From: an uncultured Clostridia bacterium | GTDB taxonomy: Bacteria > Bacillota > Clostridia > TANB77 > CAG-508 | Assembly (NCBI GenBank): GCA_947573445.1 | Contig: CANPFR010000006.1 | Location: forward strand, 14,560 to 78,559 | Reading direction: 5' to 3' | DNA length: 64,000 bases | Part shown: piece after piece, positions 53,649 through 58,237 of the stretch | Layout: every line of letters starts with the position of its first letter | Position numbering within the stretch: position 1 is the stretch's first letter | Translations under genes and position numbers: made by a program | Notes under the pieces: generated by a model | What the model was told of the DNA's origin: nothing | Seen by the model: the letters and a program-made list of their open reading frames with translations, nothing else | Database searches by the model: none

Positions 53649-53724
53649 GCTTCTATAGCTCAGTAGGTAGAGCGCAGCCATGGTAAGGCTGAGGTCGCCA
53701 GTTCGATCCTGGCTGGAAGCTCCA
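53649..53724 (+). tRNA. tRNA-Thr (anticodon GGU)
   Basis: Cloverleaf folds by eye. Acceptor GCTTCTA/TGGAAGC, D-arm GCTC/GAGC, anticodon stem CAGCC/GGCTG with loop AUGGUAA (U33, GGU, A37). T-arm GCCAG-TTCGATC-CTGGC. Discriminator T plus encoded CCA. Confidence 0.85.
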
Positions 53725-53936
53725 AGTGTCGAAAAATGACGAAATTTCAAGTATAAATTGGAATTTTGTCATTTTTTGTAATATGTTAGGTTAGACTTCT
53801 ATTAGAAAATGTATTTGCTCAAATGCAAAAGGCATAAATTCAGTTTAAGAGATAGTAAAATGGTAAAGCAAAATCGATGGCTATTATTCGTCATCGATTT
53901 GATAAAAATAAAATTTCCGAAACTTAATAAAGTTTC

Positions 53937-56474
53937 TTAAAAATCATTTATATTCAGTTGTAATTTATATTTTAGTAATATTTTTTTACCTTTTTCAGTT
54001 TTTGTATACGTTAAATGTTTTTTGGCAACTGATACATTGTTAAAAAATAGGGTAGCATCTGATTTGTTTTTGTTAAATTGTTCAGGGACTGAACAAGCTC
54101 TATGATAAAACTCAACGATATATCTTGCGTTATTGCTCAGAGATAGTGATTCTTTTACGGTTTTTAAAAAAATCATTTGTTCATGGGTACTACTATTTTT
54201 AAGTCCATACTCTAAAGTATTTTTATTCATTTTTATAAAATATTTTGTAGTTCGTGCAATTATTTTTTTCTTGATTAATGATTGATATACTGCTCTACAA
54301 ACAATTTTTACAAATCTTTTATAAGAACGATATATTTTGTGTTCAATATATTTTTTTAGTTTGTTACCAGTATAAATCAAAATTGCTATTGGTAAAAATA
54401 CTTTTACGATACTTTCATTTGTAGATAGAAAAGAGGCTAAAGAAGGGATTAGTATTGGTGATAAAACGATTGACGCAATCAATAGTTTTAATGGTAAAGT
54501 AGGTGGTTTATTTGTTGTTGGTAAGGTATTTGATAGTGGTTCTGGAACTGTGGATATATCAATTTTTTCGGTGGTTAATGGCACATATGTTTCTGTAGAA
54601 TTTTTCCAAATTTCACTATTTAGTGTTCTTTTTTGGGCATTTTCTATCATATAATCATTTAATTGTTTTATTTCTTCTTTTTGATAATGTTTGTTAGGTA
54701 TATTTAATCTATCAATTCCACTATCTATGGTTTTATTTTCTATATCAATGCCTTCAAAGGCAATAAATCTTTTAGAAAGAATTTCATAATCATAACCTAA
54801 AATATATTGATTATCTTCATTTTCTAAACATACGAGATGCCAGATATTAGAAAATTTATTTTTGTCTGATTGATTTATTCTTATGGCTCGTCCTCTTAAT
54901 TGGTTTGAAGTTACATAAGAAGAAACATAGGTGGCCATAATTAAAGAGTTAACAAAAGGTGCATCCCATCCTTCACCAATAAGTGCAATTGTTCCAATTA
55001 GTACAGATAGATTTGATTGTTCAAAAAGTTTTGTAATTAAGTTAACTTTAAATTTATCATACTTGCTTTCAAACTCTACTTTTGAATAATCAAAATTAAT
55101 TCCAAGTTCTACGATTTTTATCTCCTCTTTTTTTATATGATATTCTTTTTCAGCTAATTCCCAAAGTTGCTCTTTTAGTTCTGTTGGAATAATGGTTAAG
55201 CTACCTGTTAATACAGCAACATTAACAGTTGGATTTTTTGACATAACTTTTCTAAAAATTGGCATTACCCCTAATTCTTTGATATCTTCTTCGTTTTGAA
55301 TATTGTAATACTCATCTTTAATGTAGTCTGTAACAATAACTAATTTTAATTTTTCATGTAATGATTTTTTTTCAATATCGATAATTTCACAAATACTATT
55401 TAATTTTTCATAATTTCTAATCAGCAAATTGGAAATTTTCTTATTGTATTTTAAATGAATATTATGATCATCATCAATACAACCTAATTCAATTAATTCT
55501 TGTTTAATAGCACGAATTTCCTCTTTAAAAATAGTTTGTTCCAAAGTACTTTTTTTGAATATTAGATTTTCTAACATGATATTTAACATTGAAAAATTTA
55601 GTTTAGGAATATTTAAATTTTCTAAGTCTTTTCTTTTCGGAATGGCATAATTTACTTTTTTCAAAAAACTTAACATAGCAATAAAAAATTCAAATTCATT
55701 TAAAATATGATTTGTATTTTCCTCTGTATGAATGATATAATCATGTAATGCTATGATTTTTATAAATGTTTTATTATTCAATAATCTATTTACGAATGCA
55801 TTAACTTTTTTGGTATGTTCCTTTAATTCTAGTTCTTGTTCAAGATTTGGTGTATTAAAATAGATAAAGTCTTGATGTGGGCATAAACAATTACTTTTTA
55901 CTAGTTGTGGTATTGTAATTTTTGCATCTATGATTCCGCATAAATCGATATAATTATCAAAATCTTTTTTATTATCGTAGGGAGGAGTAGCCGTTAAAGA
56001 GATTGTTGTACAATCTGGTAATTGATTTGTTATTTGTTTTAATGCCTTTTGCCAAACTTTTCTTAAATGATGTGCTTCATCAAAAATAATAGTTTTTATA
56101 TTATTTTCAATAATGATTTTATGGATATCAGTTTCTTTTCTTCTTAACGAGTATAATGCTTGGTATGTGTCTATAGTTATGATTTTGGGATTTTCTAATT
56201 CGGAAGAGATTAAATCAGCTTTATCAGCATTGATAAAATCTTTGGTTAATCTTTCGATCCATTGTTCTTTTATTGCAATTGTTGGGACTAATACCAAAGC
56301 TTTATGGCCAATTCTTATCAATAGTTCTAAAGCAAGTATTGTTTTTCCAGCTCCAGGAGCAGCAACAATATGAAGCTTTTTGTCATGTATAAAGCGATTT
56401 AACATAGTTAATGTATCTTGTTGATAGTCTCTAAATGGATATTTGAATTTAATATCTTGTAATTTCTTTTCCAT
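53937..56474 (-). CDS. membrane-anchored SF2 (DEAD/DEAH, type III res-like) helicase
   Basis: Motif I VAAPGAGKT, motif II FDEAHH, motif VI QLRGRAIR. After about 570 aa come two hydrophobic TM helices (LLIASIVLSPILIPSLASFL; FLPIAILIYTG) and a ~130-aa C-terminal domain. Second ATG chosen for RBS AGGAAGGA. Confidence 0.7.
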   Translation of the reverse strand: MEKKLQDIKFKYPFRDYQQDTLTMLNRFIHDKKLHIVAAPGAGKTILALELLIRIGHKALVLVPTIAIKEQWIERLTKDFINADKADLISSELENPKIITIDTYQALYSLRRKETDIHKIIIENNIKTIIFDEAHHLRKVWQKALKQITNQLPDCTTISLTATPPYDNKKDFDNYIDLCGIIDAKITIPQLVKSNCLCPHQDFIYFNTPNLEQELELKEHTKKVNAFVNRLLNNKTFIKIIALHDYIIHTEENTNHILNEFEFFIAMLSFLKKVNYAIPKRKDLENLNIPKLNFSMLNIMLENLIFKKSTLEQTIFKEEIRAIKQELIELGCIDDDHNIHLKYNKKISNLLIRNYEKLNSICEIIDIEKKSLHEKLKLVIVTDYIKDEYYNIQNEEDIKELGVMPIFRKVMSKNPTVNVAVLTGSLTIIPTELKEQLWELAEKEYHIKKEEIKIVELGINFDYSKVEFESKYDKFKVNLITKLFEQSNLSVLIGTIALIGEGWDAPFVNSLIMATYVSSYVTSNQLRGRAIRINQSDKNKFSNIWHLVCLENEDNQYILGYDYEILSKRFIAFEGIDIENKTIDSGIDRLNIPNKHYQKEEIKQLNDYMIENAQKRTLNSEIWKNSTETYVPLTTEKIDISTVPEPLSNTLPTTNKPPTLPLKLLIASIVLSPILIPSLASFLSTNESIVKVFLPIAILIYTGNKLKKYIEHKIYRSYKRFVKIVCRAVYQSLIKKKIIARTTKYFIKMNKNTLEYGLKNSSTHEQMIFLKTVKESLSLSNNARYIVEFYHRACSVPEQFNKNKSDATLFFNNVSVAKKHLTYTKTEKGKKILLKYKLQLNINDF

Positions 56475-56492
56475 ATACATTCCTTCCTAATT

Positions 56493-56909: not shown

Positions 56910-56957
56910 GATACATTTCTCCTATCGTTCATTTTATTATTTTTAACTTGCATTTCA

Positions 56958-58001
56958 TCAAGTGTTTGTTTCAAATTTTCTTTGGTTACAATGAATGCTT
57001 TTTTCTGTTTCCAGTCTCTTTTGTTTGTCTTCATTATGTATTTTGATAATTTGGTCTAAAGTTTTTAATATATCTTGATTTGTTTTCTTTAATGTTTCGA
57101 TATCGCTAATTCCTAAAGCCAATATGATTTGATTTTTCCATAATGGAATGGTATTGGTTAAGGATAATTGTATTTTTTCGATTAATTCAGATTCATTGTT
57201 TTGTAGTAATTTTATTTGTGGAGCCATTTGAATTGAAATAATTCTGGTCATTTTTAAATCATGTATTTTCTTTTCAAATTTATGGATCGTATTTTTCATG
57301 TCATGCACTTGTTGAGCATCAAATGATTTTTTGGTTTGAATGGCTTTTTCGTTAAGTTTCTTTAATTGTACATTTAATTCTTCGATTTTTTTATCGCCAG
57401 CAATGATATAGAATGAAATCTCTTTAAAATGTTCTAAATTTTTTTCATACATCTTATCAAATATGATAACATCTTTTAACATTTGGACTTTGTGGTTTTC
57501 TAATTTTTGTTCGATGGTATCGATGTTTTTTTCCATTGTGTTATATTTTGCTATAAGTTTTTCGAATTGTTTGTTTGTATTTTTGAAAAAATTAAAAAAT
57601 TTAGGCTTACTTTCTATTATATTAGACGCAAGAGATTTTATTTCTGTAACGAAATCGATTAATAGATGACCAACTTCTTCGGTATTTTTATTTTTTATTC
57701 TTTTTAAAATATTATCTGTAAATCTAGCTATTTTTGTTTGGGCTTCTATTCCATACTGTAAAACAGAAGTAGAGTCTTCTATGGTAATCGTTTGATTTAT
57801 CTGAGTGATGAATTGTTTTTCTTCATTTGATAAAATGTTATAATTAAGTGAATTTTCAATTTTTTCCTCTGTCATTTTTTCACCATCTTGTGCTAATTGA
57901 TGAATTGTTTTTTGGGTGTTATGATAACCATCTTCTTTTAGCATATGTTCAAATAGTTTTATTTCAGCATTAATATCTATAAATTCTGATTCATCTGACA
58001 T
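56958..58001 (-). CDS. TelA/YaaN family (toxic anion resistance protein-like)
   Basis: DSTSVLQYGIEAQTKIARFTDNILKRIKNKNTEEVGHLLIDFVTEIKSL matches the conserved TelA-family block (s.vLQYG..AQ.kIA.FsD..L...r.kd.GEVG..L..Lv.El) as recalled. Coiled-coil rich, 347 aa. RBS AAGGAG. Confidence 0.65.
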   Translation of the reverse strand: MSDESEFIDINAEIKLFEHMLKEDGYHNTQKTIHQLAQDGEKMTEEKIENSLNYNILSNEEKQFITQINQTITIEDSTSVLQYGIEAQTKIARFTDNILKRIKNKNTEEVGHLLIDFVTEIKSLASNIIESKPKFFNFFKNTNKQFEKLIAKYNTMEKNIDTIEQKLENHKVQMLKDVIIFDKMYEKNLEHFKEISFYIIAGDKKIEELNVQLKKLNEKAIQTKKSFDAQQVHDMKNTIHKFEKKIHDLKMTRIISIQMAPQIKLLQNNESELIEKIQLSLTNTIPLWKNQIILALGISDIETLKKTNQDILKTLDQIIKIHNEDKQKRLETEKSIHCNQRKFETNT

Positions 58002-58237
58002 AGTTTACTACTCCTTCGTTCATTTTATTTTATTTTATCATAGATTGAATAAAATTACATTGTTTTTTGAAAATATAGACAAATTTTTTTAATGTTTAAG
58101 TTGATACAGATAAAATAGAGAGGAGGCCAAGAAAATAGAGAAGAGGAAGAGATATCTTGCTAAAAAGTAAGAAATCATTTAAAAATGACGAAACATAAGT
58201 AAAATCAAGTGAGAGCAGGATTTTTGCAAAAGTCAAG

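What the first reader, a model, noticed from the sequence alone, without database searches (positions are those of the whole stretch)
53649..58194. tRNA-adjacent islet: TelA-family protein + small coiled-coil protein + membrane-anchored SF2 helicase, bracketed by 13-bp direct repeats
These three minus-strand genes sit between tRNA-Thr and the rhamnose cluster.

- Genes: 56958-58001 TelA/YaaN-like, 56493-56909 138-aa coiled-coil protein, 53937-56474 DEAD/DEAH helicase whose C-terminus carries two TM helices plus an extra domain.
- Flanks: the islet is flanked by a perfect 13-bp direct repeat AAAAATGACGAAA at 53732-53744 and 58181-58193. The first copy lies 8 nt after the tRNA 3' end.
- Composition: the islet looks more AT-rich by eye than neighbouring core genes.
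- Why it matters: pairing a Ter/TelA-type membrane-stress domain with a DNA helicase resembles TerB-helicase defence architectures such as Shango-like systems. As far as I know this exact TelA + helicase-TM fusion triad has not been described. It could be a phage-defence or DNA-damage/envelope-stress module acquired at the tRNA.
Basis: partly seen in the sequence, partly recalled or inferred. Interest (0 to 1): 0.78.

Follow-up and report, generated by a model that had tools for sequence, protein, structure and literature searches.

The report
TelA–XpaC operon with membrane-tethered helicase
Three co-transcribed genes pair two known envelope-stress proteins (TelA and an XpaC-domain protein) with an uncharacterised, apparently membrane-anchored helicase; the gene partnership is real and conserved, but the claimed insertion scar at the tRNA is not.

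Summary
The tRNA-Thr, the three minus-strand genes, the two 13-mers and the GC dip are all present as described.

**Island reading fails.**
- 13-mer copy 1 is the 5' arm of the tRNA's own 21-bp terminator hairpin.
- That hairpin, plus about 110 bp after the tRNA, is conserved in a relative that lacks the three genes.
- The block shared with other genomes is 53944-58088. The 13-mers lie about 200 bp and 93 bp outside it.
- There is no integrase, and synonymous codon use is host-like. The GC dip comes mainly from amino-acid composition.

**Gene partnership holds.**
- The 138-aa "coiled-coil" protein is the cytosolic half of XpaC (PF10112) without its membrane helices.
- It sits immediately upstream of the helicase in 8 of 9 lineages examined, down to 38% helicase identity.
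- TelA is a facultative third gene (4 of 9 lineages, on either side).
- The helicase is XPB/Hef/RIG-I-like, with intact motifs, a hydrophobic hairpin and a family-specific C-terminal domain of unknown fold.
- More distant relatives (about 880-920 aa) occur in many phyla as stand-alone genes.

There are no meaningful PADLOC matches, no TerB domain, and almost no carriage on phages or plasmids. Best reading: an elaborated XpaC-TelA envelope-stress module that couples a membrane-tethered nucleic-acid translocase. Defence is possible but unsupported.

The parts
53649..53724 (+). tRNA-Thr (GGT). Conserved after the sigma-factor gene in related genomes.
   Evidence: ARAGORN.
53730..53785 (+). Intrinsic-terminator hairpin of the tRNA (21-bp stem, 7-nt loop, U-run). 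Its 5' arm contains 13-mer copy 1 (53732-53744).
   Evidence: Fold gives dG -23.4 kcal/mol and z -7.06. Conserved in L093, which lacks the three genes.
53871..53936 (-). Two terminator-like hairpins just downstream of the helicase stop codon. Probable end of the operon.
   Evidence: Fold gives dG -15.8 and z -3.2. Inferred function.
53937..56480 (-). SF2 helicase of 847 aa (likely start at 56474). From N to C: RecA1, a helical insertion (about residues 213-377), RecA2, a beta-rich linker, a hydrophobic hairpin (about 662-707), and a C-terminal alpha/beta domain (about 720-842).
56493..56909 (-). XpaC-domain protein of 138 aa. It is the cytosolic C-terminal half of XpaC without the two N-terminal membrane helices. 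Invariant partner of the helicase.
   Evidence: PF10112 at 6.7e-17, profile positions 71-191 of 191. Adjacent to the helicase in L001-4, L006-L011 and L102.
56958..58001 (-). TelA-family protein of 347 aa. Shortened variant with a 43-codon in-frame deletion at about 57106-57114 and a frameshifted last ~20 codons.
   Evidence: PF05816 at 1.1e-74. Alignment and frame check. Same variant in the independent fragment P0389.
58002..58088 (-). 5' leader and promoter region that travels with the module. Homologous to the region upstream of telA in L001.
   Evidence: blastn block limit at 58088. Sequences read. No strong consensus promoter was called.
58181..58193 (+). 13-mer copy 2. It lies 93 bp outside the conserved module and about 45 bp upstream of the first rfbD promoter.

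Best explanation
This is a self-contained three-gene operon. It elaborates the known Bacillota xpaC-telA envelope-stress pair by adding an XPB/Hef-like SF2 nucleic-acid translocase.

**Proposed mechanism**
- The helicase sits on the inner face of the membrane, held by a hydrophobic hairpin. Both the motor and the C-terminal domain face the cytoplasm.
- The small soluble XpaC-domain protein is its dedicated subunit or adaptor.
- Where TelA is present, or encoded elsewhere in the genome, it links the pair to the sub-membrane assembly that responds to membrane perturbation.
- The result is ATP-driven remodelling of duplex DNA or RNA placed next to the membrane under envelope stress.

**Shown**
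- Operon structure.
- Domain identities and intact ATPase motifs.
- Conserved XpaC-like/helicase adjacency, and facultative TelA.
- Relocation of the block between genomes.
- Absence of integration signatures.

**Inferred**
- Physical complex formation.
- Membrane tethering.
- Coupling to stress.
- The nucleic-acid substrate.

The tRNA-Thr and the 13-mers are bystanders.
For: - Domain assignments.
- XpaC-like ORF 3-23 nt upstream of, or overlapping, the helicase start in 8 of 9 lineages, down to 38% helicase identity.
- TelA upstream in the window, L001 and L011, and downstream in L008. This is the gene-order shuffling typical of functional linkage.
- In L009 and L010 the hairpin plus C-terminal domain is a separate downstream ORF, so it is a modular part of the system.
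- Confident structural model with both RecA lobes, a helical insertion, two long hydrophobic helices and a compact C-terminal domain. XPB, Hef and RIG-I are the closest structures.
- xpaC-telA is a documented envelope-stress pair. PMC12791056 treats it among Lia-type responses, and telA disruption raises nisin susceptibility. PMC6811118 reports a YycFG link and a daptomycin phenotype of xpaC that depends on telA.
- The module carries its own leader and terminator, and it recurs at 81-86% nucleotide identity in another neighbourhood.
Against: - There are no experimental data on any member.
- SF2 helicases have no known role in envelope stress.
- TelA is missing next to the pair in 5 of 9 lineages, and it is truncated in this window.
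- A subset of homologues lacks the hydrophobic hairpin, so membrane tethering is not universal.
- More distant family members are stand-alone, with no XpaC or TelA neighbour among 112 neighbours scanned. The helicase therefore does not need these partners in general.
- Only 9 lineages were sampled for context.
Confidence: 0.45

Rival explanations
1. An undescribed anti-phage or anti-plasmid defence system. TelA and the XpaC-like protein sense DNA entry or membrane damage. They then license the membrane-tethered helicase to act on incoming DNA. This would be conceptually like Zorya or Kiwa, where membrane sensors are coupled to DNA-directed effectors.
For: - Patchy distribution across phyla.
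- The module relocates between genomes.
- Occasional mobile or conflict-type neighbours: an integrase in L005, a resolvase in L102, and MazE, NADAR and patatin nearby.
- Ter/TelA proteins have been proposed to form sub-membrane structures that block phage or xenobiotic entry (PMC7824862).
Against: - No PADLOC match for any of the three proteins beyond weak DinG noise. Neighbours give only marginal PADLOC hits.
- No nuclease or other effector domain.
- No relative in 2.9 million viral contigs.
- Only 5 of 72,556 plasmids, all non-mobilizable megaplasmids, and 2 short virome contigs.
- Immediate neighbours of 79 distant relatives are housekeeping genes. Synteny is conserved across Flavobacteriaceae genera.
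- Codon use is host-like.
Confidence: 0.2
2. A housekeeping or repair helicase whose dedicated small subunit happens to derive from the XpaC fold. TelA adjacency would be secondary and is decaying here. There would be no link to envelope stress.
For: - The wider family is stand-alone and stably syntenic in some lineages, next to ogt/hem genes in Flavobacteriaceae and near metK in Sporosarcina.
- TelA in the window carries a deletion and a changed C-terminus.
- The closest structural relatives (XPB, Hef, FANCM) are repair translocases.
Against: - TelA recurs with the pair in four lineages and in two gene orders.
- An XpaC domain is otherwise known only as TelA's partner.
That is unlike a core repair function.
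Confidence: 0.2
3. One reading: a small genomic islet integrated at tRNA-Thr, with the 13-bp direct repeats as att-site duplication.
For: - The 13-mer occurs only twice in 64 kb.
- A shared 13-mer between the two flanks arises by chance in only 1.5-2.8% of trials.
- The genes are on the opposite strand to nearly all neighbours.
- They are absent at this position in relatives.
Against: - Copy 1 is the terminator stem of the tRNA. It and about 95 bp to its right are conserved in L093, which lacks the three genes.
- The repeats do not overlap the tRNA.
- They lie about 200 bp and 93 bp outside the transferable block, 53944-58088.
- There is no integrase or recombinase in or beside the unit.
- Codon use is host-like.
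- Relatives differ on both sides of uvrA-sigma-tRNA, so absence there is general rearrangement and not an empty site.
Confidence: 0.04
4. A membrane-associated DNA-translocation motor for uptake or export of DNA, analogous to ComFA.
For: A membrane-tethered SF2 ATPase with intact motifs.
Against: - No competence, pilus or conjugation genes in any neighbourhood examined.
- The helicase is XPB/ResIII-like, not ComFA-like.
Confidence: 0.05

Closest known systems
xpaC-telA (yaaN) gene pair of Bacillota (B. subtilis xpaC-yaaN, L. monocytogenes lmo1966-lmo1967, E. faecium xpaC-telA)
   Same: - Adjacent, co-directional genes for a PF10112 (XpaC) protein and a PF05816 (TelA) protein.
- In the known pairs they are linked to the cell-envelope stress response and to tolerance of nisin and daptomycin (PMC12791056, PMC6811118).
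   Different: - Here XpaC lacks its two N-terminal membrane helices.
- The gene order is telA then xpaC-like.
- A large SF2 helicase is the third and most constant member.
- TelA is optional across relatives, and it is shortened in this window.
Archaeal/eukaryal XPB (Rad25) and the Hef/FANCM/RIG-I-like helicases
   Same: - Best sequence matches (PDB 6p4f and 5tnu, E about 1e-11).
- Best structural matches (Foldseek E 1e-14 to 1e-12).
- Two RecA lobes with a helical insertion between them, as in Hef and RIG-I.
- DEAH-type motif II.
   Different: - It scores 53 bits against a cut-off of 610 on the XPB equivalog model, so it is not an XPB orthologue.
- There is no Bax1-like nuclease partner.
- It has a hydrophobic hairpin and a unique C-terminal domain.
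Shango (TerB protein + ATPase + helicase) and other Ter-linked defence systems
   Same: A protein with a 'tellurite-resistance' name encoded next to a helicase.
   Different: - TelA is unrelated to TerB.
- No TerB domain was found.
- No Shango or other PADLOC model matches.
- There is no second ATPase.
Zorya / Kiwa (membrane-embedded sensors coupled to DNA-directed effectors)
   Same: Only the concept: a membrane-associated component encoded together with a helicase or DNA-binding component (from my own knowledge of these systems).
   Different: - No ZorAB- or KwaA-like proteins.
- No PADLOC hits.
- No nuclease.
- No defence-island context.
kilA operon klaA(telA)-klaB-klaC(telB) of IncP plasmid RK2
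   Same: A TelA-family protein in a three-gene operon (own knowledge).
   Different: - The partners are unrelated: there is no helicase in kilA.
- The present family is essentially absent from plasmids.

Membership tests
TelA family (Pfam PF05816) | Profile match above the gathering score | tested here: met
   252 bits against a cut-off of 30, E 1.1e-74.
TelA family (Pfam PF05816) | Full-length domain comparable to close homologues | tested here: not met
   43-aa in-frame deletion and an altered C-terminal tail relative to L001 and L011. The same variant is in P0389.
XpaC / Halogen_Hydrol (Pfam PF10112) | Profile match above the gathering score | tested here: met
   62.5 bits against a cut-off of 29.8, E 6.7e-17. 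The partner ORFs in relatives also carry PF10112.
XpaC / Halogen_Hydrol (Pfam PF10112) | N-terminal two-helix membrane region (profile positions about 1-70) | tested here: not met
   Only profile positions 71-191 are matched and the protein is 138 aa. Partners in relatives are 138-156 aa.
Superfamily 2 helicase, ResIII/XPB-like | Walker A, DEAH, motif III and arginine-finger motif VI conserved, with two RecA lobes | tested here: met
   These motif residues are invariant across 88 homologues. ResIII scores 83 bits against a cut-off of 22.5. The AF2 model and Foldseek agree.
XPB orthologue (NCBIfam NF045503) | Equivalog score above the cut-off | tested here: not met
   53.4 bits against a cut-off of 610, and only the N-terminal lobe aligns.
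Shango defence system | TerB-domain protein plus matches to the SngB/SngC models | tested here: not met
   No TerB in Pfam. PADLOC returns only weak DinG hits, at 1e-4 and 1e-3.
Any PADLOC v2.0 defence system | HMM match of at least one component | tested here: not met
   for the three proteins. for neighbours in relatives, which gave marginal hits only.
tRNA-targeted integrative island | Integrase or recombinase gene within or beside the unit | tested here: not met
   Only three ORFs lie between the tRNA and rfbD, and none is a recombinase.
tRNA-targeted integrative island | Direct repeats at the junctions, with one copy overlapping the tRNA 3' end | tested here: not met
   The repeat starts after the tRNA. 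It is a terminator stem conserved in a relative that lacks the three genes, and it lies outside the block 53944-58088.
tRNA-targeted integrative island | Empty site in close relatives | tested here: inconclusive
   Relatives keep uvrA-sigma-tRNA but diverge on both sides, and none has rfbD next. The metagenome scan gave only two short contigs.
tRNA-targeted integrative island | Foreign codon usage | tested here: not met
   Synonymous-codon likelihood is within the window's range. GC3 is 0.16-0.21, at or just below the low end of the 0.17-0.33 seen in the other genes.

The most novel reading that the evidence does not exclude
The XpaC-domain protein, TelA and the membrane-tethered XPB/Hef-like helicase form a previously unrecognised immune or surveillance system. 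It would detect membrane breach or DNA entry at the cell envelope and use the helicase to strip or eject invading nucleic acid. The widespread stand-alone ~900-aa relatives would be single-gene versions of the same activity.
Probability: 0.15. Interest if true: 0.8.

Novelty: new variant of a known kind. Interest (0 to 1): 0.45.

Why it matters
- TelA and XpaC are repeatedly implicated in tolerance to nisin, daptomycin and other membrane-active agents, yet they have no known mechanism.
- A conserved operon that ties the XpaC domain directly to an ATP-driven nucleic-acid motor gives a concrete, testable partner. It also hints that the XpaC domain is a protein-protein adaptor, not an enzyme.
- The work defines a sizeable uncharacterised helicase family: at least 595 clusters at 50% identity, found across Bacillota, Bacteroidota, Acidobacteriota, Planctomycetota and archaea. 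Its signature is a hydrophobic hairpin followed by a family-specific C-terminal domain. Membrane-tethered SF2 helicases are rare and poorly understood.
- The case shows that a perfect short repeat next to a tRNA can simply be a terminator stem.

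Tried and rejected
1. **Empty-site test.**
   - Exact look-up of the window's sigma factor found nothing.
   - The metagenome scan gave only two contigs of about 2.4 kb.
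   - Longer contigs from relatives showed rearrangement on both sides, not an empty site.
There was no Pfam hit, and the hhalign probability was 0.2%.
4. **XpaC or TelA partners next to distant helicases.** Iterated HMMs, neighbour clustering and a Pfam scan of 112 neighbours found none.
5. **L005's 255-aa upstream ORF as a divergent XpaC or TelA.** No similarity was found.
6. **Phage or plasmid carriage.** Essentially none.
7. **A shared 'IDxxAEIKV' peptide.** It appears at the XpaC-like C-terminus, at the TelA N-terminus and in some helicase tails. The similarity is weak: hhalign E 0.0037 with probability 9%, and motif-HMM scores of at most 4.6 bits. I did not rely on it.
8. **Prior description.** Four literature searches found no TelA/XpaC + helicase report. 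Anantharaman, Iyer and Aravind 2012 (Mol Biosyst 8:3142), the most likely place for one, is not held.

Full report
**1. Observation**

ARAGORN finds one tRNA in the window, tRNA-Thr(GGT) at 53649-53724 on the + strand. Downstream lie three co-directional minus-strand ORFs:
- 53937-56480 (847 aa).
- 56493-56909 (138 aa).
- 56958-58001 (347 aa).

The 13-mer AAAAATGACGAAA occurs exactly twice in 64 kb, at 53732 and 58181. GC falls to about 0.25 over the three genes, against about 0.34 on either side. The descriptive part of the finding is therefore correct.

**2. The repeats are not an insertion scar**

- The sequence right after the tRNA folds into a 21-bp-stem hairpin followed by a U-run (dG -23.4 kcal/mol, z -7). 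This is the tRNA's intrinsic terminator, and 13-mer copy 1 is most of its 5' arm.
- Relatives whose sigma factor is 86-89% identical keep uvrA-sigma-tRNA-Thr.
- In L093, which lacks the three genes, the hairpin and the sequence up to window position 53838 are conserved at 85%. Sequence to the right of copy 1 is therefore host sequence, not island sequence.
- The unit that recurs elsewhere (L001-L004, 81-86% nucleotide identity, a different neighbourhood with no tRNA and no rfb genes) spans window 53944-58088.
- The 13-mers lie about 200 bp and 93 bp outside that block.
- A shared 13-mer or longer between the two flanking intergenic stretches arises in 2.8% of dinucleotide shuffles and in 1.5% of random placements in real sequence. 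That is unusual but weak for a feature chosen after the fact.
- No recombinase is present.
- Relatives differ from the window on both sides of the uvrA-sigma-tRNA block. Absence of the three genes there reflects general rearrangement, not an empty site.

**3. Composition**

The GC dip is concentrated in codon positions 1 and 2. GC2 is 0.14-0.26 in the three genes, against about 0.29-0.38 in the flanking genes, reflecting Lys/Asn/Ile/Glu-rich proteins. GC3 is 0.16-0.21, at or just below the low end of the 0.17-0.33 found in the window's other genes. The likelihood of the synonymous codon choices under the window's own usage is -0.83 to -0.84, well inside the range of -0.73 to -1.12. Composition gives no evidence of recent foreign origin.

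**4. The proteins**

*TelA.* It matches PF05816 at 1e-74. Compared with L001 and L011 it lacks 43 residues in frame, and a frameshift replaces its last ~20 residues. An independent 600-bp ENA fragment (P0389) shows the same two changes, so they are real features of this lineage.

*The 138-aa protein.* It matches PF10112 (XpaC, 'Halogen_Hydrol') at 6.7e-17, covering profile positions 71-191 of 191. It is the cytosolic half of XpaC without the two N-terminal membrane helices.

*The helicase.*
- It matches ResIII and DEAD. The closest sequences with solved structures are archaeal XPB proteins.
- Its motif residues (AAPGAGKT, DEAHH, TATPP, QxRGRAIR) are invariant across 88 homologues.
- The AlphaFold model is confident (pLDDT 88, pTM 0.84). 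It shows RecA1, a helical insertion (about residues 213-377), RecA2, a beta-rich linker, two long hydrophobic helices (662-684 and 689-718) joined by a 4-5-residue loop, and a compact alpha/beta domain (720-842).
- Foldseek ranks XPB, RIG-I/LGP2/MDA5, Hef and FANCM first.
- A profile of this domain finds 595 clusters among 1.84 billion representatives. The match is always at the C-terminus, either of helicase-length proteins or of short proteins that look like fragments or split versions.
- Most homologues have the hydrophobic region. A minority of about 775-810 aa lack it.

**5. Conservation of the partnership**

| Lineage | Helicase identity to window | XpaC-like ORF next to helicase | TelA |
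|---|---|---|---|
| window | - | yes | upstream |
| L001-4 | 84% | yes | upstream |
| L011 | 69% | yes | upstream |
| L005 | 63% | no (unrelated 255-aa ORF, integrase nearby) | none |
| L006 | 51% | yes | none |
| L009/L010 | 48% | yes | none |
| L007 | 41% | yes | none |
| L008 | 38% | yes | downstream |
| L102 | 38% | yes | none |

- In eight of nine lineages a 138-156-aa PF10112 ORF lies 3-23 nt upstream of, or overlaps, the helicase start. The L005 exception was checked.
- TelA is present in four lineages.
- In L009 and L010 the hairpin plus C-terminal domain is a separate downstream ORF.
- The invariant core is therefore XpaC-like + helicase (+ hairpin/C-terminal-domain module). TelA is facultative.

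**6. The wider family**

They span Bacillota, Bacteroidota, Acidobacteriota, Planctomycetota, Proteobacteria and archaeal MAGs.
- Of the 80 loci kept, the 79 at 29-36% identity are about 880-920 aa and share the C-terminal domain. They have no XpaC or TelA neighbour and no other recurrent neighbour.
- In Flavobacteriaceae the gene sits in a conserved ogt/hem neighbourhood across several genera. In Sporosarcina it sits near metK (gene identities from my reading of the sequences).
- The family is absent from 2.9 million viral contigs. It occurs on 5 of 72,556 plasmids, all non-mobilizable megaplasmids, and on two short virome contigs.
- PADLOC gives nothing meaningful for the three proteins. It gives only marginal hits for neighbours in relatives.

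**7. Interpretation**

The closest precedent is the xpaC-telA pair of Bacillota.
- In Listeria the homologous operon is treated as part of the envelope-stress response, and telA disruption sensitises cells to nisin (PMC12791056).
- In E. faecium the pair is up-regulated by a YycG mutation. Deleting xpaC lowers the daptomycin MIC 8-fold, but only when telA is intact (PMC6811118).

My best reading (confidence 0.45) is an elaborated XpaC-TelA module. A soluble XpaC-domain adaptor couples a membrane-tethered XPB/Hef-like translocase to TelA-type sub-membrane assemblies, which places ATP-driven nucleic-acid remodelling at the membrane under envelope stress. The operon structure, domain identities and conserved adjacency are shown. 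Complex formation, membrane tethering, stress coupling and the substrate are inferred.

Rivals:
- **Undescribed defence system (0.2).** This is attractive by analogy with Zorya and Kiwa, and with the proposed role of TelA in blocking entry (PMC7824862). It lacks an effector, a defence-island context and MGE carriage.
- **Plain repair or housekeeping helicase with an XpaC-derived subunit (0.2).**
- **DNA-uptake motor (0.05).**

**8. Novelty and score**

- Each domain family is known, and the XpaC-TelA pairing is known.
- I found no published description of the coupling of an XpaC-domain protein to this helicase, or of the helicase family's hairpin plus C-terminal-domain signature. The most relevant comparative paper could not be read.
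- I rate it a new variant of a known kind, with interest 0.45. It is a real, conserved and unexplained partnership with a testable hypothesis. It has no functional evidence, and its most eye-catching claims (att repeats, Shango-like defence) are refuted or unsupported.

Noticed in passing
window 51759-51761 (uvrA, 50035-52864): uvrA is split by a single frameshift at UvrA residue 580/581. Both halves are 90-94% identical to the intact 947-aa UvrA of L093. It could be a real pseudogene or an assembly error.
   Followed up: partly
window 15424-17672 and 27410-28895: Overlapping same-strand ORF sets (15424-16077 / 15992-16636 / 16557-17672, and 27410-27814 / 27765-28895) look like further frameshifted genes.
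   Followed up: no
window 34358-39211 and 39312-49484: Two giant + strand ORFs (1617 aa and 3390 aa) carry Listeria-Bacteroides / InlB B-repeat domains, so they are probably surface proteins. They are lineage-specific: relatives have an ACR_tran transporter upstream of uvrA instead.
   Followed up: partly
window 58238-58266 and 58365-58392: Two perfect 12/12 sigma-70 promoters with an extended -10 TG lie in tandem upstream of rfbD. The stretch 58200-58328 has a weak match (71%) to an intergenic region upstream of the ACR_tran gene in L093.
   Followed up: no
window 58112-58126 and 58132-58146: A direct repeat, AAAATAGAGARGAGG, with 20-bp periodicity lies between the telA leader and the rfbD promoters. 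It may be a regulator-binding site. It lies outside the block shared with L001.
   Followed up: no
L091 2110-2270; L093 10642-10797: Relatives carry a partial duplicate of the 5' end of tRNA-Thr between the sigma-factor gene and the complete tRNA. This hints at past rearrangement at this tRNA in the sister lineage.
   Followed up: no
L007 5185-5260 and 5557-8571: In a distant relative (helicase 41% identical) the XpaC-like/helicase pair lies about 300 bp downstream of a different tRNA-Thr (CGT), in the same orientation as the tRNA. This may be coincidence.
   Followed up: no
window 56493-56540 (XpaC-like C-terminus) and 57930-58001 (TelA N-terminus): The XpaC-like C-terminal tail (EIIDLDAEMQVMEKEM) resembles the TelA N-terminus (EFIDINAEIKLFEHML) and the C-terminal extensions of some helicase homologues (for example IDVQVMKDVL in P0091). 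The statistics are weak: hhalign E 0.0037 with probability 9%, and motif scores of at most 4.6 bits.
   Followed up: partly
L006 4467-10623: In one relative the XpaC-like/helicase pair is flanked by an NTP_transf_5 nucleotidyltransferase, a patatin-like phospholipase with DUF6363, and a 416-aa protein with no family match, all co-directional. This may be a larger lineage-specific operon.
   Followed up: partly
L064, L069, L071, L082, L083, L086, L089: In Flavobacteriaceae the stand-alone helicase sits in a conserved neighbourhood with ogt-like and haem-biosynthesis (hemB/hemE/hemF-like) genes across several genera. This suggests stable vertical inheritance there.
   Followed up: partly
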